A DNA stretch of 64,000 nt from Escherichia phage vB_EcoM_WFbE185, in sequence record MK373778.1; one strand, given 5' to 3'. Position numbers and translations under genes: made by a program. Below the pieces are notes generated by a model. The model did no database searches. It had not been told where the DNA came from and saw nothing but the letters and a program-made list of their open reading frames with translations. Position 1 is the stretch's first letter. Each line of letters opens with the position of its first letter. Below, piece after piece: positions 4,671 through 42,445 of this stretch.

Positions 4671-6359
4671 TTATGAAACAGTCATTACAGTAAATCGTCC
4701 AACTTTGCTCATTTGCAAATGTTGTCCATAACGTTGAGGGTCATGGTCCCTATGAGAAATAATGAACACGTTAGTATTTTGTAAACTTCCAAGAATGGTA
4801 TCTATAGCCTTAACAGCTTCAGAATCAACTGCCCCATCAAAAACCTCGTCAAGAATCAGAGTGTTGATTTTAACACCAGAGACCTTTTCAGCAATATCTC
4901 GCCATGTAAACAACAACGCGATATCAATGCGTGCTTTTTCACCTTGACTAAATGAAGCATAACTAAAATCTTCACGACCACGTGATTTTATAGATTCATT
5001 GAATTCTTCATCAATAGAAAACACGTAATCAGCTTCCATAATTTTAAGATAATGGTTAATCTGCTTGTTGAACAGAGGCACATATTTTTTAATGATAGCA
5101 CCTTTAATACCAGAATCTTTTAACATATCTGTGATAATACCACGATGGTATTTTTCAAGAACGATATCCGATTTTGTTTTAATGATTTTATCAAGTTCTT
5201 TTTGAAGCAAAGCTATCTCATCGGCATGGTCGATAAATTCTGCTGAGGCTTGCTCTATTGCAGCTTTAACTTTCTTAGCTTTATCAATAGTGGCAATCAT
5301 TGCTTGTTTCTTGGTACGAATATCAGATGCAAGGTCCTGCTTAGTCTTAACATTAGCTCTATATTCATCAACTAGGACACTCAGATTATCTCTGTGACAG
5401 GTAAGTTGCTCGAATGAGTGATTACATTCATGAAGCTTATCGGTAATCTTAGAGACAATAGGATCACCCTGGTGCAACTGTGATGCACAAGTAGGACATG
5501 TACCACCATCATGATACATCTTAATAACTTTGTTATATGAGTCAATTTTAGATTTAATCAAGAATGCTTCTTGTCCGATCTTGTTGAATGCCTCAGTAGG
5601 GTCTTCGTCCAGAACGATATTAAGTAGACGCTCGTTAGCTTCTTCAATTTCTGCTTTTAATGAACGAGCTTCTTTGGCTAGGTCGTCATACATATTCTGT
5701 AGACGAGCTACATTATCACCAGATAATTTCTTTTGACGTTCGATATTCTCGTTATAAATCTTAATTTGTTGGATAACACCATCTTTCTTGGCATCGAGAA
5801 CTTGTCCCTGAGAATTAAGTTCGCGAACTTGAGACTTATTGATTTTATCCATTTCAGCGAGTGTGCCAACTTCTAAAAGGTCTTCGACAAGTTTTCTACG
5901 AGCAGGGGTGCTAAGAGCCATGAAAGGGGTATACCCTGCCGTCCCAAGCACAACGATTTGTTTAAAAGACGCGTATGACATTCCGATGCTACGTTCAAAT
6001 TCTTCTTGGAAGTCACGACTGCTGGCAGATTCATCAAGACGAACACCGTCAACGGAGATTTCGAAAATATTGGGCTTTTGGCCACGTCTAATGAAGTATT
6101 TTTTATCATCGAATTCCATCCAAAGCTCAACTAAGAGCTCTTTCTTGTTCGTGCTATTAATGATTTGTCCTTTCTTAACATCACGAAATGGTTTGCCGAA
6201 AAGTCCAAAAGTGATGGCTTCTAACATCGTAGATTTACCGCCGCCATTTTTACCAGTGATTAATGTCTTTTGGACTTTATCTAATTGGATATCAATAGGA
6301 TTCCCACCTACCGACATGATGTTTTGATAACGAACACGATTTAATTTAAATGATTTCAT
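4671..6359 (-). CDS. 46: Recombination endonuclease subunit gp46 (Rad50/SbcC-like ATPase)
   Basis: 562 aa; Walker A GKNGGGKST; long coiled coil; CPTC zinc hook; D-loop LILDE. Confidence 0.9.
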   Translation of the reverse strand: MKSFKLNRVRYQNIMSVGGNPIDIQLDKVQKTLITGKNGGGKSTMLEAITFGLFGKPFRDVKKGQIINSTNKKELLVELWMEFDDKKYFIRRGQKPNIFEISVDGVRLDESASSRDFQEEFERSIGMSYASFKQIVVLGTAGYTPFMALSTPARRKLVEDLLEVGTLAEMDKINKSQVRELNSQGQVLDAKKDGVIQQIKIYNENIERQKKLSGDNVARLQNMYDDLAKEARSLKAEIEEANERLLNIVLDEDPTEAFNKIGQEAFLIKSKIDSYNKVIKMYHDGGTCPTCASQLHQGDPIVSKITDKLHECNHSFEQLTCHRDNLSVLVDEYRANVKTKQDLASDIRTKKQAMIATIDKAKKVKAAIEQASAEFIDHADEIALLQKELDKIIKTKSDIVLEKYHRGIITDMLKDSGIKGAIIKKYVPLFNKQINHYLKIMEADYVFSIDEEFNESIKSRGREDFSYASFSQGEKARIDIALLFTWRDIAEKVSGVKINTLILDEVFDGAVDSEAVKAIDTILGSLQNTNVFIISHRDHDPQRYGQHLQMSKVGRFTVMTVS

Positions 6360-34276: not shown

Positions 34277-34517
34277 CTCGGTCCCATGATTTGGCCATTA
34301 ATTCGGACATAAATTCTTCAATGCGCGTTTCTTTAGATGGACTTTCACTATTAGAGACCGCAAGTTTGTAATCTGCAATAGGACAGAACATATCAAGGTC
34401 CATATTAAGGTCGTCTTTGATTTTTTCTTCTGACACATCTTTATCGTATGTGTACAGATAACTATCACATGATTCTGATTTAATGTAAATTGCTATACTC
34501 ATCTCAAATTCCTGCAT
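34266..34517 (-). CDS. Hypothetical acidic protein, 83 aa
   Basis: ORF track. Confidence 0.45.
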   Translation of the reverse strand: MQEFEMSIAIYIKSESCDSYLYTYDKDVSEEKIKDDLNMDLDMFCPIADYKLAVSNSESPSKETRIEEFMSELMAKSWDRDDE

Positions 34518-34990
34518 TCGGTAATAAAACGTTCAACTTCATTATTCTTGGCCTTTATCTTGTCTTTACGTTCCTGTAAACTACTTTTAACAAGATTAAT
34601 AATGATGCCTACAGTACCTCCACCAATAATACCACCAATAATACTTACGATAGTAGATGCTAATAAGATAGCAATAATATCAACAAAACCGAAAGAACTC
34701 ACCTTAGTACTAAAAAACCATACCGACGGTACAAATATAATCCATCCTGTTATCCATTGGCACTTATTGAAAAACTTTTCAAGCTCAGCTTGAGTTGTTC
34801 GTATTACTTCATCGATAGGTTGATATCCGTTAATGTATCTGTTCACGATAATACCTGCTGGCTGGTCGATTTTAAATTCTTGGCAAATACGTTTAACTAA
34901 GTAGGATGGACATCCTGTCCAATCTACTGAATAGTATGAAATACCTTCGTTGCCATCGTCTATATTAGACCAATATGTTTTGTTAATCAT
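34499..34990 (-). CDS. Membrane protein, 163 aa
   Basis: ORF track; Gly-rich helix IIGGIIGGGTVGIIINLV. Confidence 0.5.
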   Translation of the reverse strand: MINKTYWSNIDDGNEGISYYSVDWTGCPSYLVKRICQEFKIDQPAGIIVNRYINGYQPIDEVIRTTQAELEKFFNKCQWITGWIIFVPSVWFFSTKVSSFGFVDIIAILLASTIVSIIGGIIGGGTVGIIINLVKSSLQERKDKIKAKNNEVERFITECRNLR

Positions 34991-35677: not shown

Positions 35678-35983
35678 TTATTTTCCTCGACATTCTTTAA
35701 TGAAATTTTCTAGATTGGTAGATTCAATAGCTTTTTTACGAGCTTCTGCGTGTTCTTCTTCAGACAATTTACGTTTATAATTGACCCAGACATTATGGTC
35801 TAAACCGGTCGTGGCATATAATATCAAAGCTCCGACGAATAATAAAAACGGTGATAAAAATATACAACCAGGAACACCATCCATACTGTAAGCCTTTTGT
35901 AATACTGCAACAGAAAGAGCTGCGTAAAAAAGTGATGCAAATATTGTAAAAAGACCAATTCGGTTGGTTTCGCCTAATTTCAT
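35678..35983 (-). CDS. Membrane protein, 101 aa
   Basis: ORF track; two hydrophobic helices. Confidence 0.5.
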   Translation of the reverse strand: MKLGETNRIGLFTIFASLFYAALSVAVLQKAYSMDGVPGCIFLSPFLLFVGALILYATTGLDHNVWVNYKRKLSEEEHAEARKKAIESTNLENFIKECRGK

Positions 35984-36053: not shown

Positions 36054-37010
36054 TTATTTGAAAGGTTTTACCATATGGAAATTTTGTTTGAAACGTTTTA
36101 CGTAATCGTCATGTCCTAAGCTTTGGTACATACTTACAACTTTGCTGTAGTTTTCCCAGGCGTATTCACGGAACCAACCGGAGGTGATGCTTGTGCAGAC
36201 TTTTTCTAATGCCATCATGAAACTGGCTTCAGGGTTAATTTTAAAGTCATTAGGAATCTGAGAACGTTCTAATGCTAGTACACATGATTCTTCATATACA
36301 CCGGCCAATTTGACCATTTCTGGTAACGATTCGAACTTCTCGCGTGAGGTCATGACTTCAGAACCGTCTTTCATATAAAATGTATACGCTGGGCGGTCTG
36401 TTAGCGCAATGGCTTCGTGAATAGTGTCATGGTCATATGTATAGATGTCATCTTTAAAGAACGCACTTTTAGAAGTGTCAAGAACTGGGTGAGCATAGTT
36501 CAAGGTTTCTTTCTGGCGTTTCAGCATAATTTCAGTAAGTTCATCGTTCAGTGTAACACCTTTACCACGAAGATACTGAATATGGTTCATAGTCTTTAAA
36601 AAGAATGGATTATTTTTCTTGAAACGATGAGACATCTTAATTGCAAGGCACATCTCAGGAGTCGCCCAGTAAAACCCGTTCAAACGGTCTTTAGACAAAT
36701 TTTTCTTGGCGTATTTTAAAAGGTCATAAGAAGACGTGAAATCTTCAGGAGTGAGTTCACCTACTAATTCACGGACATTAGTGATTGCCGGAACAATATA
36801 TGCTTCAAAATGAGTTTCGCGTCCATTATGGAAGCATTTGAAAACTTGGACATCAGGGTTATCTTGGTGAACATATACACCCATCATTTGATTTTTGAAT
36901 GCATTCCAAGAACATTGGTCCGCAATAAAGTCCCAATCACTATTTTTGATAGCGCTAGAATCAATAAGACCGTGATAGTGAAGTGCACGAGAACCAATAA
37001 CTAACATCAT
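36054..37010 (-). CDS. Hypothetical protein, 318 aa
   Basis: ORF track; N-terminal GS...SDWDF weakly nucleotidyltransferase-like. Confidence 0.55.
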   Translation of the reverse strand: MMLVIGSRALHYHGLIDSSAIKNSDWDFIADQCSWNAFKNQMMGVYVHQDNPDVQVFKCFHNGRETHFEAYIVPAITNVRELVGELTPEDFTSSYDLLKYAKKNLSKDRLNGFYWATPEMCLAIKMSHRFKKNNPFFLKTMNHIQYLRGKGVTLNDELTEIMLKRQKETLNYAHPVLDTSKSAFFKDDIYTYDHDTIHEAIALTDRPAYTFYMKDGSEVMTSREKFESLPEMVKLAGVYEESCVLALERSQIPNDFKINPEASFMMALEKVCTSITSGWFREYAWENYSKVVSMYQSLGHDDYVKRFKQNFHMVKPFK

Positions 37011-37038: not shown

Positions 37039-37290
37039 TTAAATTTCACGACATGCGATATTATATTCATCCCAGAGGTCAACATGTGAAGCCTCTACCA
37101 ATGGAACGATTGTACCGTTTATGTCTTCATTATAAGGGCAAATTGTACAGTGCGCATCTTCGAATCGGATGCCTTTATGTTCAGATTTTTTATAACGCAT
37201 ATCGAATATCTTTGCAAACTTTTCACGACTAATAGTTTTAGCAACTACTTCAGTTCCGATACTTTCGTAATAAATCATTGTGGACTCCAT
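37039..37290 (-). CDS. Hypothetical protein, 83 aa
   Basis: ORF track; Cys/His-containing. Confidence 0.5.
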   Translation of the reverse strand: MESTMIYYESIGTEVVAKTISREKFAKIFDMRYKKSEHKGIRFEDAHCTICPYNEDINGTIVPLVEASHVDLWDEYNIACREI

Positions 37291-37306: not shown

Positions 37307-37336
37307 ACTATAACATAGCCCTATCTTGTTGTAAAC
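37307..37336 (-). promoter_or_regulatory. Sigma70-type early promoter inside 10-bp palindrome
   Basis: GTTTAC-18-TATAGT; arms GATAGGACTA / TAGCCCTATC. Confidence 0.5.
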
Positions 37337-37340
37337 TGTT

Positions 37341-37538
37341 TTAGCAAGAATAACTAGATGATACCCAGCCTTGAACAGTAATACTATTGTGGGATAATGA
37401 GATCGCGTCCTGGAGATTCAGACCTGCGTTATCTTCAATCCATAATGTAACTTCTTCGCGTTCTTCTGTTGCAATCTGGAACAGGTTTTCCAGAGCAGCT
37501 ACTGCGGTACGCACAGCACAATCTAATTCACGAGACAT
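37341..37538 (-). CDS. Small protein, 65 aa, with C-terminal GWVSSSxxC tail
   Basis: ORF track; ends QGWVSSSYSC. Confidence 0.5.
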   Translation of the reverse strand: MSRELDCAVRTAVAALENLFQIATEEREEVTLWIEDNAGLNLQDAISLSHNSITVQGWVSSSYSC

Positions 37539-37547
37539 ATTGTTTCC

Positions 37548-37820
37548 TTAACAAGTGTGAGAAGATGCGACCCAACCACCAGTTTCGAGGCTCAAGTTGT
37601 AGTCGTATTGGTAAACGTCAGCCCATTCAGCATAGCCGTTTTTTGTACAACGTTCAAGATCAGCTTTAAGATGTCCGGGTGAATGATAGGTTCCACCCAT
37701 ACCATAAGCTGGGTACAAGTTGAATGTTGTGTTTTGTTTATCGGCAATTTCTTTGGCAGCCTCAATAGCTGCATAGATTTTTGCTACAGCTTCAGCCAGT
37801 TCGGTTTGTTCTTTAGACAT
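37548..37820 (-). CDS. Small protein, 90 aa, with C-terminal GWVASSxxC tail
   Basis: ORF track; ends GGWVASSHTC. Confidence 0.5.
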   Translation of the reverse strand: MSKEQTELAEAVAKIYAAIEAAKEIADKQNTTFNLYPAYGMGGTYHSPGHLKADLERCTKNGYAEWADVYQYDYNLSLETGGWVASSHTC

Positions 37821-37829
37821 AATGATTCC

Positions 37830-38135
37830 TTAGCACAACGCAGAAGACGAAACCCAAGCACCTTCAGTAATAACGTAACCATTACCTTCACGCTTAACAT
37901 CGCCACCATTATTTTCAATTTCATCTTTCATCCACTGGGATACGATTTCACCCTTAGGATAATAAGTACGACCGCTACCATAATCACCTACAGAAAATGA
38001 TACGGCATATTGGTCTGCGATCTTTGTTGCTTCTTCTTCGATACGTTCAGCTTGATTCAGAAGTTTATAAATTGCATCTGAAGCGGATTTGGCATCATTA
38101 AACTCTGGTACTTTAATTTCAATAATCTTACTCAT
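37830..38135 (-). CDS. Small protein, 101 aa, with C-terminal AWVSSSxxC tail
   Basis: ORF track; ends GAWVSSSALC. Confidence 0.5.
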   Translation of the reverse strand: MSKIIEIKVPEFNDAKSASDAIYKLLNQAERIEEEATKIADQYAVSFSVGDYGSGRTYYPKGEIVSQWMKDEIENNGGDVKREGNGYVITEGAWVSSSALC

Positions 38136-38205
38136 TTTCTACATTCCTTAATAAAGTTTTCGATTGTTTCATTTTCACGTTTAGCTAGGAGTTCATTATA
38201 ACTAT

Positions 38206-38490
38206 TCATTTGAGAAGCGTAAACCCTTTTATTTTCTTGTTATGGTTTATAAAATCGTAGTAAAAATAGACTACAGTACAAAATGATGCGATTGATGCAA
38301 AGGCTTGAGTATATCGTAAGTCCTGCCACTGGTCTGTGAATCCACCAGTGTTCCCTATAAATCCTAACACAACGCCGTCAATAAGAAATCCAACTAATCC
38401 AAAGGCAAATCCCATGCCAATACTCATAATAAAAATTAGAATGTTCTCACCAAGAGAAGGCCATACGGTTAAGAGTTGAGGCTTTTGCAT
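38206..38490 (-). CDS. Membrane protein, 94 aa
   Basis: ORF track; hydrophobic. Confidence 0.5.
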   Translation of the reverse strand: MQKPQLLTVWPSLGENILIFIMSIGMGFAFGLVGFLIDGVVLGFIGNTGGFTDQWQDLRYTQAFASIASFCTVVYFYYDFINHNKKIKGFTLLK

Positions 38491-38894
38491 CTTATTTCCT
38501 TAACGAATTCCATAGCTTCTTCATATTCATACTTTTTAACAGCTTCATCATACTGAGCTTGGGCTTTTGCGCACTGAACTTTCCATTCTCTTAATCGGGC
38601 TCTGTGATGACGGCCTTGGTGCCAATATCCTGCCCAATTAATAGGCATTAATAAAAATGGTACAATAAGTGGGGCGACGAACATTAATGAAAATGCTGCA
38701 TCAGACGATATAACTTTACTAGAATCTAAAACAGCTCCTATAATCATAAAGATTAAAAATGCTAAAGCTAAAATAGGGCCAAATAGTACTTCGTTTGGGA
38801 TTAATTTACGTTTGTATTCGTATGCCCAGGGCTTAATTGGCATGTACAGGGTTGGCTTTGACATATTCTCTACATTCCATAATAAATTGCTCAA
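38469..38894 (-). CDS. Membrane protein, 141 aa
   Basis: ORF track; two predicted helices. Confidence 0.5.
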   Translation of the reverse strand: MSNLLWNVENMSKPTLYMPIKPWAYEYKRKLIPNEVLFGPILALAFLIFMIIGAVLDSSKVISSDAAFSLMFVAPLIVPFLLMPINWAGYWHQGRHHRARLREWKVQCAKAQAQYDEAVKKYEYEEAMEFVKEIRCKSLNS

Positions 38895-39456
38895 GGATTA
38901 AATTGTTAGTGAAATTAGGACTAACAACCATAGTTTCATAAAGCGCATCAATAGCACTTAAAGCATCAACTCTTTTAAGCAAAGGCTTGCCTTCATACAT
39001 AGTTTCAGAATCAACGATTAACGTAAAGTAATATTTTTTATTATCGACTAGAACTTCTGTGTCGATATAAAACATATTAGACCTCAGAAGCTTATCTCTA
39101 AAACCATAATAATCTTCTGAACGTTCGCTGATATATTCCCATTCAGTGTTTAAACAACAAACAGACCACGTAGGAGAAACGAAATCAGTGAATCTAATAT
39201 CATGGTCTGCAACTAGTTTAGCAATAGCTCCGATATCATGAATCATAATACCTGGGGCTAATAAAGATTTTCTGCTATGGCTAGCCGTTTTCTCAGTGGT
39301 CTCATAAGAAGCTGACCAGTACCATTTACGTCCGGTTGCAACATATCGTAATGAATCAACTAAAGACGTAGGTGGATTTACCTTATCTCGGAACTCTTCG
39401 AACATTGAGTCAATATCATTATTTTGGTTTCGCATGTTAACTCCTTTATTATCCAA
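38833..39456 (-). CDS. Hypothetical protein, 207 aa
   Basis: ORF track. Confidence 0.5.
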   Translation of the reverse strand: MDNKGVNMRNQNNDIDSMFEEFRDKVNPPTSLVDSLRYVATGRKWYWSASYETTEKTASHSRKSLLAPGIMIHDIGAIAKLVADHDIRFTDFVSPTWSVCCLNTEWEYISERSEDYYGFRDKLLRSNMFYIDTEVLVDNKKYYFTLIVDSETMYEGKPLLKRVDALSAIDALYETMVVSPNFTNNLILEQFIMECREYVKANPVHAN

Positions 39457-42288: not shown

Positions 42289-42365
<77 letters not shown>

Positions 42366-42371
42366 AATATA

Positions 42372-42445
42372 TGACCCAGACCAGATTCGAACTGGTAACC
42401 TTTCCCTTATGAGGGGACTGCTGCTAACCATTGAGCTACAGGGCC
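42372..42445 (-). tRNA. tRNA with CAU anticodon (Ile2 or Met)
   Basis: Hand fold: T-arm ACCAG-TTCGAAT-CTGGT, anticodon loop CTCATAA, D-loop AATGGTTA; one mismatch in acceptor stem; CCA not encoded. Confidence 0.6.

What the first reader, a model, noticed from the sequence alone, without database searches (positions are those of the whole stretch)
37341..38135. Three tandem small proteins sharing a conserved C-terminal GxWVSSSxxC tail
ORFs 37341..37538, 37548..37820 and 37830..38135 end in ...QGWVSSSYSC, ...GGWVASSHTC and ...GAWVSSSALC. The bodies are diverged but the last ten residues are conserved and terminate in Cys, which points to a shared C-terminal functional tag such as a modification site, degradation signal or sorting signal, not to simple recent duplication.
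Basis: seen in the sequence. Interest (0 to 1): 0.45.

Follow-up and report, generated by a model that had tools for sequence, protein, structure and literature searches.

The report
Cys-tailed phage proteins linked to nucleotidyltransferase
Three small neighbouring phage genes belong to a large uncharacterised family of acidic proteins that nearly all end in Trp-x-Ser-Ser-Ser-x-x-Cys, and these genes almost always sit just upstream of one particular nucleotide-transferring enzyme, which suggests the tail is the handle that enzyme recognises.

Summary
Three minus-strand ORFs (101, 90 and 65 aa) of an RB69-like T4-type phage end in WVSSSALC, WVASSHTC and WVSSSYSC.

**Family.** The tail marks a large family that is apparently phage-restricted: 758 clusters at 50% identity. 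Of 196 members examined, 186 end exactly in Cys, and W(-7), S(-4) and S(-3) are nearly invariant. The proteins are acidic (median pI 4.4). AlphaFold predicts a compact alpha+beta domain whose last strand is the W-V-S of the tail. The fold has no PDB match.

**Linkage, the main new result.** These genes occur as arrays of 1-5 directly upstream, on the same strand, of a ~300-aa DUF7277/DUF7275 protein.
- 73 of 80 enzyme-anchored loci carry such an array.
- 48 of 48 tail-anchored loci with enough flanking DNA carry the enzyme.
- In the window the enzyme gene is 36054..37010(-).

**Interpretation (inferred).** The tail is most likely the docking or acceptor element for this enzyme, probably through Ser-O nucleotidylylation or phosphorylation. 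A MenA-like regulator or adaptor role is the main rival. Degradation or sorting signals have no support.

I found no published description, and the idea is directly testable.

The parts
37830..38135 (-). P1, 101 aa, 'GDYGSGRTYYP'-type member of the Cys-tailed family (equivalent to RB69ORF139c+138c, which are split by a frameshift in the RB69 record)
   Evidence: phrog_899, E 1.3e-22; AF2 pLDDT 92.9
37548..37820 (-). P2, 90 aa, 'AYGMGGTY'-type member (equivalent to RB69ORF137c)
   Evidence: phrog_899, E 5e-19; 280 phage records; homologous to P1 without the tail, E 5.6e-15
37341..37538 (-). P3, 65 aa, short member lacking the YG.G.TY hairpin (equivalent to RB69ORF136c)
   Evidence: phrog_4882, E 7.7e-37; 251 phage records; weak body link to the P2 type through the N-terminal helix
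37833..37856 (-). Tail of P1: WVSSSALC, then stop
   Evidence: family logo
37551..37574 (-). Tail of P2: WVASSHTC, then stop
37344..37367 (-). Tail of P3: WVSSSYSC, then stop
37039..37290 (-). 83-aa ORF between the array and the enzyme gene (phrog_3723, unknown function, no tail). It is not a universal part of the module.
36054..37010 (-). 318-aa DUF7277+DUF7275 protein, a predicted Pol-beta-type nucleotidyltransferase of MenT/ANT(2'')/LnuA-like fold and the conserved downstream partner of the array
38195..38223 (-). sigma70/T4-early-like promoter match (TTTACG-17-TATAAT) about 60 nt upstream of the P1 start. Inferred, consensus match only.
   Evidence: sequence conserved in RB69 and F27
37307..37335 (-). 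sigma70/T4-early-like promoter match (TTTACA-17-TG-TATAGT) between P3 and the 83-aa ORF/enzyme genes. Inferred.

Best explanation
P1, P2 and P3 are three paralogues of a large family of small acidic proteins that appears restricted to phages. Its hallmark is the C-terminal motif G-G-W-[VLIM]-[SAP]-S-S-x-x-C-COOH. The family is genetically tied to one enzyme, a MenT/ANT-like nucleotidyltransferase (DUF7277+DUF7275), which is encoded immediately downstream on the same strand.

Shown:
- the family and its near-invariant tail;
- a folded alpha+beta body with the tail as its last strand;
- the near-obligatory linkage between array and enzyme;
- the nucleotidyltransferase fold and catalytic motif of the enzyme.

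Inferred:
- The tail is the element through which these proteins engage the enzyme. The Trp anchors the strand in the domain. The exposed Ser-Ser...Cys end enters the enzyme's active-site cleft.
- There a Ser hydroxyl (less likely the Cys thiol) accepts a nucleotidyl or phosphoryl group from an NTP.
- The differently shaped bodies (1-5 per phage) would then be distinct 'clients' whose activity, for example binding of host targets early in infection, is switched by one shared modification.
For: Family and tail:
- 758 clusters at E<=1e-3 in an exhaustive profile search.
- 186 of 196 sequences end in Cys, 6 more have one extra residue, and 3 are truncation artefacts. W(-7) is present in 184/186, S(-4) in 185/186 and S(-3) in 183/186.
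- The tail is kept on bodies too diverged for the family HMM to detect.

Linkage:
- Anchored on the enzyme, 73 of 80 IMG/VR loci have 1-5 tail ORFs within 3 kb upstream on the same strand. The strict motif occurs in 134/1402 ORFs there against 4/11,651 elsewhere.
- Anchored on the small protein, 25 of 27 loci and 23 of 27 metagenome loci have the enzyme downstream. All 6 exceptions end within 1 kb of the contig end.
- The surrounding genes differ between loci (NrdD, NAMPT, Rnl1/PNK, T4 e-region), so the pair moves as a unit. In many minimal loci the two genes are only 4-40 nt apart.

Enzyme:
- AF2 pLDDT 90.4.
- G6 S7, D25xD27 and E69 are invariant.

Chemical plausibility:
- This fold group transfers NMP to hydroxyl acceptors (tRNA 3'-OH, aminoglycoside and lincosamide OH).
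- MenT1 and MenT3 also phosphorylate an active-site Thr or Ser (PMC7450476, PMC11375011).

Asymmetry:
- The enzyme exists without tail genes (L051; Gordonia, Streptomyces, Brevibacillus and DSS3 phages).
- Tail genes were never seen without the enzyme, as expected if the small proteins depend on the enzyme.
- Several separately conserved paralogues per phage fit clients better than a single inhibitor.
Against: No direct evidence of binding or modification exists, because no co-folding or mass data could be obtained here. The AF2 model puts W-V-S-S in a beta-strand, so part of the conservation could be purely structural. The spacing between S-S and C varies: two residues in most members and none in the 'W-x-P-S-S-C' subtype, and some members carry an internal DWLSSSCYGE copy. 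This argues against one rigid geometry. Distant enzyme homologues work without tail proteins and sit next to RNA ligase, phosphoesterase or tRNA genes, so the enzyme's primary substrate may be RNA, with the small proteins acting as regulators instead. RB69 itself carries a frameshifted P1, so at least P1 is dispensable in the laboratory.
Confidence: 0.42

Rival explanations
1. Regulator or adaptor model (MenA-like). The small proteins are not modified. They are non-covalent partners of the nucleotidyltransferase. Either they act as inhibitors or timers that plug the active site with the tail, as small upstream antitoxins control MenT toxins, or they act as interchangeable specificity subunits that dock by the shared tail and use their different bodies to direct the enzyme to different RNA or protein targets.
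For: The layout of a small gene directly upstream of a MenT-like enzyme matches MenA/MenT operons. MenA1 is a 68-aa protein encoded upstream of MenT1 (PMC7450476, PMC10435456), and MenT1 is the best structural match. The enzyme occurs alone in distant phages next to RNA ligase or tRNA genes, which suggests an RNA substrate. The small proteins are strongly acidic (median pI 4.4, median charge -8.5), as expected for competitors of a nucleic-acid substrate. Dependence of the small genes on the enzyme (48 of 48 informative loci) fits this model equally well.
Against: A simple inhibitor does not explain up to five diverged paralogues per phage that are conserved separately. Known MenA antitoxins have no such tail or fold: no Pfam, PADLOC or PDB match. 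A lytic phage has little need for an antitoxin, and L051 keeps the enzyme without them. The two invariant Ser and the terminal Cys look more like reactive groups than a mere docking surface.
Confidence: 0.3
2. Structural or metal/thiol model. The tail is conserved because it completes the fold (Trp in the core) and the terminal Cys mediates oligomerisation, metal binding or a redox/thiol function of the small proteins themselves. Linkage to the enzyme would reflect only shared regulation or co-inheritance.
For: AF2 places W-V-S-S in the last beta-strand with high confidence. Trp is the most invariant residue. 83 of 218 members have a single Cys, so any Cys chemistry would have to be intermolecular. 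In the enzyme, C243 is invariant in all 27 tail-associated sequences but is Tyr in all four tail-less homologues, which could hint at a shared thiol or metal site.
Against: A purely structural role does not explain why Cys must be the very last residue in about 95% of members, or why two Ser are invariant. Co-inheritance cannot explain linkage kept across unrelated genomic contexts and phage lineages, with roughly 280-fold enrichment. The C243 observation itself points to contact with the enzyme.
Confidence: 0.13
3. The tail is a proteolytic degradation signal or a sorting/secretion signal read by host machinery.
For: It is C-terminal, short and shared by otherwise different proteins.
Against: It does not resemble known bacterial C-terminal degrons (ssrA-type non-polar LAA ends) or C-terminal sorting signals, which include a hydrophobic helix; this comparison rests on established knowledge. 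The proteins are acidic and soluble-looking with no hydrophobic segment. The tail is part of the folded domain. Hosts range from Enterobacteria to Acinetobacter, Aeromonas, Xanthomonas and uncultured taxa, while the one constant partner is phage-encoded.
Confidence: 0.05

Closest known systems
MenA-MenT / AbiEi-AbiEii nucleotidyltransferase toxin-antitoxin systems (DUF1814)
   Different: There is no sequence membership in DUF1814/AbiEii (Pfam gives only DUF7275/DUF7277) and no PADLOC hit. The system is carried on lytic phages rather than cellular genomes: only 6 hits in 185,579 species genomes, all MAG contigs. The enzyme has an extra, highly conserved C-terminal helical region. The partner is a family with its own fold and an invariant Cys tail, present in 1-5 copies, unlike any MenA or AbiEi.
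Nucleotidyltransferase-fold enzymes that modify a partner protein: MNT-HEPN (AMPylation of HEPN Tyr), GlnD-PII (uridylylation of Tyr51), CitX-CitD and MdcG-MdcC (phosphoribosyl-dephospho-CoA attached to a Ser of a ~100-aa acidic carrier protein). These examples come from my own knowledge and were not tested here.
   Same: An enzyme of the same superfamily is encoded next to a small protein that carries a conserved hydroxyl residue. A phosphodiester to Ser or Tyr is established chemistry for this fold.
   Different: The partner has no HEPN, PII or acyl-carrier fold or sequence. The candidate acceptor sits in a C-terminal tail ending in Cys. There are several client paralogues per enzyme. Modification has not been demonstrated.
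PHROG families phrog_899 and phrog_4882 (unknown function)
   Same: P1 and P2 match phrog_899 (E 1.3e-22 and 5e-19) and P3 matches phrog_4882 (E 7.7e-37).
   Different: PHROGs records them as separate families with no function. Neither the shared tail nor the linkage to DUF7275 is recorded there or in any paper I could find.
C-terminal Cys motifs in RiPP precursors (lanthionine / AviCys S-x-x-C rings) and CaaX boxes
   Same: A Ser three residues before a C-terminal Cys is the spacing of many lanthionine and AviCys rings. A conserved C-terminal motif sits on variable N-terminal parts.
   Different: No dehydratase, cyclase or LanD-type decarboxylase occurs among the neighbours. The body is a folded domain rather than a leader peptide. 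The Ser-Cys spacing is not constant. In CaaX the Cys is at position -3, not the terminal residue.

Membership tests
Cys-tailed small-protein family (phrog_899 / phrog_4882 and relatives) | Significant profile match to the family | tested here: met
   (E 1.3e-22, 5e-19, 7.7e-37)
Cys-tailed small-protein family (phrog_899 / phrog_4882 and relatives) | C-terminal W-x-[SAP]-S-S-x-x-C ending the protein | tested here: met
   for P1-P3; 186 of 196 family members
Cys-tailed small-protein family (phrog_899 / phrog_4882 and relatives) | Located upstream, on the same strand, of a DUF7277/DUF7275 gene | tested here: met
   In the window the enzyme gene is at 36054..37010(-), 331 nt downstream of P3. General rule.
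MenT/AbiEii (DUF1814) nucleotidyltransferase toxins (for the 318-aa partner) | Pol-beta motif hG[GS]x9-13Dh[DE]h plus a third acidic residue | tested here: met
   IGS7 ... D25-W-D27-F-I and E69 are invariant in 27 homologues. The spacer is 17 residues in the window protein and 13-19 in homologues, longer than the canonical range.
MenT/AbiEii (DUF1814) nucleotidyltransferase toxins (for the 318-aa partner) | Sequence membership in Pfam DUF1814/AbiEii | tested here: not met
   hmmscan at E<=0.1 returns only DUF7275 and DUF7277. PDB profile search finds nothing. No PADLOC hit.
MenT/AbiEii (DUF1814) nucleotidyltransferase toxins (for the 318-aa partner) | Bi-lobed MenT-like fold | tested here: met
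MenT/AbiEii (DUF1814) nucleotidyltransferase toxins (for the 318-aa partner) | Toxicity neutralised by the upstream partner; nucleotide addition to the tRNA 3' end | not testable with these tools
   Requires expression and tRNA extension assays.
MNT-HEPN systems | Partner protein with a HEPN domain and an Rx4-6H motif | tested here: not met
   P1-P3 have no Pfam, NCBIfam or PADLOC match, and the fold has no PDB match.
RiPP precursor with lanthionine/AviCys-forming C-terminus | Dehydratase/cyclase or LanD-type decarboxylase encoded nearby | tested here: not met
   None among the window neighbours or in the four distant contexts.
RiPP precursor with lanthionine/AviCys-forming C-terminus | Unstructured core peptide following a leader | tested here: not met
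   AF2 predicts a compact domain with the tail as its last strand, pLDDT 92.9.
C-terminal degron or sorting signal | Non-polar ssrA-like end, or a hydrophobic helix plus a sorting motif | tested here: not met
   Tail sequences are polar (S-S-S-x-x-C) and the proteins are acidic with no hydrophobic segment. Function itself was not assayed.
CaaX prenylation box | Cys at position -3 followed by a-a-X | tested here: not met
   Cys is the last residue in 186 of 196 members.

The most novel reading that the evidence does not exclude
The tail is a reactive cassette. The nucleotidyltransferase activates one of the invariant Ser residues by O-nucleotidylylation or phosphorylation. This either leaves a stable protein-nucleotide conjugate or triggers elimination, after which the terminal Cys thiol attacks to close a lanthionine-like S-x-x-C ring. 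Either outcome would be a previously unknown, virus-encoded 'tag-and-modify' chemistry applied to a whole array of folded effector proteins. A related unexcluded variant is that the acidic proteins mimic the tRNA acceptor end, with the tail standing in for the 3'-CCA.
Probability: 0.08. Interest if true: 0.9.

Novelty: new variant of a known kind. Interest (0 to 1): 0.6.

Why it matters
The enzyme is encoded in 733 of 50,697 deposited phage genomes, across T4-like, Acinetobacter, Aeromonas, Pseudomonas and jumbo phages. The tail family comprises hundreds of sequence clusters. Both are annotated only as 'hypothetical' or DUF.

Recognising them as one two-part module turns about four anonymous early genes per phage into a concrete, cheap experiment: does the enzyme bind or modify the tail? 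If it does, this would be a new viral post-translational tagging system, or a new way of controlling a MenT-type enzyme. It would also supply a portable 8-residue tag and give a functional entry point into the accessory early regions of T4-like phages used in therapy collections.

Tried and rejected
**Database and literature searches that found nothing**
- Pfam, NCBIfam and PADLOC on P1-P3: no significant hit.
- PDB profile search: nothing better than E 0.036, and those hits are coiled-coil noise.
- BFVD: returned only the protein's own family.
- The afdb50 library was unavailable.
- Literature searches for ORF names, DUF numbers, motif strings and phage nucleotidyltransferases found no description. 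The NAD/ADPr virus survey (PMC9503650) does not mention it.
- Pfam on family members with long N-terminal extensions, looking for informative fusions: none.
- A scan of 185,579 species genomes for the enzyme: only 6 hits, all MAG contigs with tail ORFs upstream, so there is no cellular context to learn from.
I repeated it with the P2-type alignment.

**Ideas considered and rejected**
- RiPP idea: no dehydratase or decarboxylase among the neighbours.
- DNA-level repeat or regulatory element as the cause of tail similarity: rejected, because codons differ and no repeat covers the tails.
- Late promoter TATAAATA: none near the module.

Full report
**1. Where we are**

The window is about 97% identical to Escherichia phage RB69 and other Mosigvirus genomes (T4-like, Straboviridae). 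The finding lies in the accessory early region between e.2 and e.3. It corresponds to RB69ORF136c, 137c and 138c+139c, all annotated as hypothetical.

**2. The observation**

There are three minus-strand ORFs:

| ORF | Coordinates | Length | Tail |
|---|---|---|---|
| P1 | 38135..37830 | 101 aa | WVSSSALC |
| P2 | 37820..37548 | 90 aa | WVASSHTC |
| P3 | 37538..37341 | 65 aa | WVSSSYSC |

- The ORFs are 9 nt apart, and each stop codon runs into a Shine-Dalgarno-like GGA (TAAGGA...ATG). This suggests coupled translation (read from the sequence).
- No other ORF in the six frames of the 64-kb window has this tail.
- The similarity is at the protein level. Synonymous codons differ, including TCT versus AGT for Ser, and no DNA repeat covers the tails.

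**3. One family, ancient paralogues**

- P1 and P2 match phrog_899 and P3 matches phrog_4882, both of unknown function. There is no Pfam, NCBIfam or PADLOC match.
- With the tails cut off, the P1-type and P2-type bodies are clearly homologous (hhalign 98.4%, E 5.6e-15).
- The P3-type body is only weakly linked to the others (hhalign E 3e-3). The best BLAST link is 1.5e-4 between the N-terminal helices of a P3-type and a P2-type protein.
- P3 looks like a shortened member that lacks the 'YG.G.TY' hairpin.
- Each type has its own orthologues in other genera. P2 is found in 280 phage records and P3 in 251. Arrays of up to five types occur in Dhakavirus, Slopekvirus and Karamvirus. The duplication is therefore old.

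**4. How conserved is the tail?**

- A word-indexed search with a seed alignment gave 60 clusters.
- An exhaustive profile search of 1.84 billion representatives gave 758 clusters at E<=1e-3 and 139 at E<=1e-10. In almost all listed hits the match ran to the last residue of the protein.
- Of the 196 sequences in hand:
  - 186 end in Cys;
  - 6 have one further residue;
  - 3 are frameshift or truncation artefacts;
  - 1 has the Cys displaced.
- W(-7) is present in 184/186, S(-4) in 185/186 and S(-3) in 183/186. Position -5 is S, A or P.
- A subtype lacks the two spacer residues (W-x-P-S-S-C) and often also carries an internal DWLSSSCYGE copy.
- The proteins are acidic: median pI 4.4, median charge -8.5. 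In 83 of 218 the tail Cys is the only Cys.

**5. Structure of P1**

AlphaFold2 with a 33-sequence alignment gives a confident model (pLDDT 92.9). It has a long N-terminal helix (residues 15-43), a small antiparallel sheet and a short helix. W94-S97 form the last strand and S97-L100 a final turn.

**6. The conserved partner (the main new result)**

The first distant contexts I looked at were a 371-kb jumbo-phage contig and three unrelated contigs. All had tail genes followed, on the same strand, by a 300-325-aa DUF7277+DUF7275 protein. This is the same arrangement as in the window (36054..37010, 318 aa).

Systematic test, anchored on the enzyme (80 IMG/VR loci):
- 73 loci have 1-5 tail ORFs within 3 kb upstream on the same strand.
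- The strict motif occurs in 134 of 1,402 ORFs in that zone against 4 of 11,651 elsewhere, roughly a 280-fold enrichment.
- Exceptions:
  - one locus is cut at the contig end;
  - one has a slight ORF overlap that my filter missed;
  - four have a tail ORF on the other strand about 6 kb away;
  - one genuinely lacks tail genes (L051).

Systematic test, anchored on the small protein:
- 25 of 27 loci and 23 of 27 metagenome loci have the enzyme downstream.
- All six exceptions run out of contig within 1 kb.

Other points:
- Flanking genes differ between lineages, so the pair travels as a unit.
- In many minimal loci the two genes are only 4-40 nt apart.
- The enzyme family is large: more than 2,200 clusters at 90% identity and 733 of 50,697 phage records.
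- It is almost absent from cellular genomes: 6 MAG contigs among 185,579 species genomes.

**7. What the partner is**

- The Pol-beta signature is invariant: G6-S7 ... D25-x-D27 ... E69. So are K125, H128, H194-D195 and H198.
- It is not a sequence member of DUF1814.
- MenT enzymes add nucleotides to tRNA 3' ends. They can also be driven to phosphorylate their own active-site Ser or Thr by small antitoxins encoded upstream (PMC7450476, PMC10435456, PMC11375011).

**8. Enzyme without tails**

- The most distant homologues have no tail ORF upstream and sit beside RNA ligase, a metallophosphoesterase or a tRNA cluster. They are Gordonia phage Aphelion gp16, Streptomyces phage TunaTartare gp209, Brevibacillus phage Sundance gp087 and DSS3_PM1 gp28, at 27-33% identity.
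- They keep the catalytic residues.
- They differ at 14 positions that are invariant in tail-associated enzymes, including C243, which is Tyr in all four.
- The dependence is therefore one-way: tail proteins need the enzyme, but the enzyme does not need them.

**9. Expression (inferred)**

Matches to T4-early/sigma70-type promoters lie on the coding strand just upstream of P1 (38223-38195) and between P3 and the next ORF (37335-37307). No late-promoter motif is nearby. These are consensus matches only.

**10. Interpretation**

Shown: a family defined by a near-invariant C-terminal W-x-S-S-S-x-x-C, and its near-obligatory coupling to a MenT/ANT-like nucleotidyltransferase.

Inferred: the tail is the element that meets the enzyme. 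I rank the readings as follows.

| Reading | Confidence | Main reasons |
|---|---|---|
| (a) Acceptor or client | about 0.4 | Two invariant Ser and a terminal Cys look reactive; this fold transfers to hydroxyl groups; several diverged clients per enzyme |
| (b) Non-covalent regulator or adaptor, analogous to MenA | about 0.3 | Same operon layout; acidic proteins could compete with RNA; the enzyme probably has an RNA substrate of its own |
| (c) Structural, metal or thiol role | about 0.13 | Tail is part of the fold; Trp is the most invariant residue |
| (d) Degron or sorting signal | about 0.05 | Only that it is C-terminal, short and shared |

A RiPP-like ring closure or tRNA-end mimicry remains an unexcluded, more radical possibility (about 0.08).

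**11. Novelty**

I found no paper, Pfam entry or annotation that describes the tail or the linkage. The enzyme belongs to a known superfamily, and small-partner-plus-nucleotidyltransferase modules are known. I therefore rate this a new variant of a known kind, with a possibly new fold and motif on the partner side.

Noticed in passing
window 34499..34990(-), 35678..35983(-), 38133..38492(-), 38469..38894(-), 38833..39456(-); also L007, L036, L054: A second family with a shared C-terminal motif lies in the same gene block. The predicted membrane proteins e.2-like, RB69ORF133c-like, e.3, e.4 and e.5 end in ...F-[IV]-x-E-C-R... (ERFITECRNLR, ENFIKECRGK, ENFIKECRK, EFVKEIRCKSLNS, EQFIMECREYV...). 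Similar ends occur on membrane ORFs flanking the arrays in other phages.
   Followed up: partly
window 38206..38490(-), deletion near 38225: Compared with RB69 and phage F27, e.3 in this window has a 1-nt deletion in an A-run. This gives a premature stop at 38206 (94 aa instead of 119 aa). It could be a real frameshift or a homopolymer sequencing error.
   Followed up: yes
L001 (RB69 AY303349) 5831..6137, equivalent to window 37830..38135: In the RB69 reference record the P1 orthologue is split into ORF139c and ORF138c by a 1-nt T insertion. It also has Ser-to-Pro in the tail (WVSSPALC). P1 therefore seems dispensable, or decaying, in that laboratory strain, unless these are sequencing errors.
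   Followed up: yes
window 42289..42365(-) and 42372..42445(-): tRNA-Arg(UCU) and tRNA-Met(CAU) genes lie about 4.2 kb upstream of the array. In several other phages the enzyme gene lies near tRNA clusters, RNA ligase, PNK or metallophosphoesterase genes. This hints that the enzyme's own substrate may be RNA.
   Followed up: partly
L118 (Brevibacillus phage Sundance) 3258..3539: This phage's distant enzyme homologue lacks a Cys-tailed partner. The ORF just upstream ends in an acidic repeat...EEEEYSSSYYEEEEYSSSYYEED. It has a Ser triplet but no Trp or Cys and may be an analogous partner.
   Followed up: no
window 36054..37010(-), residue C243 of the 318-aa protein: Cys243 (in GVYEESCVLALER) is invariant in 27 tail-associated enzymes. 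It is Tyr in all four tail-less distant homologues, making it a candidate contact for the tail Cys.
   Followed up: partly
L051 (IMGVR_UViG_650627040, 165,540 bp): This phage is a close relative of phages that carry one or two tail genes. It has an intact enzyme gene but no trace of a tail gene within 6 kb on either side.
   Followed up: yes
L006 6323..7990, L008 3025..4503, L099 410..2032: In several unrelated phages a nicotinamide phosphoribosyltransferase (NAMPT/NadV) gene lies next to or within a few kb upstream of the array. In L099 this call rests on inspection of the ORF sequence only. The proximity may be coincidence within accessory regions.
   Followed up: no
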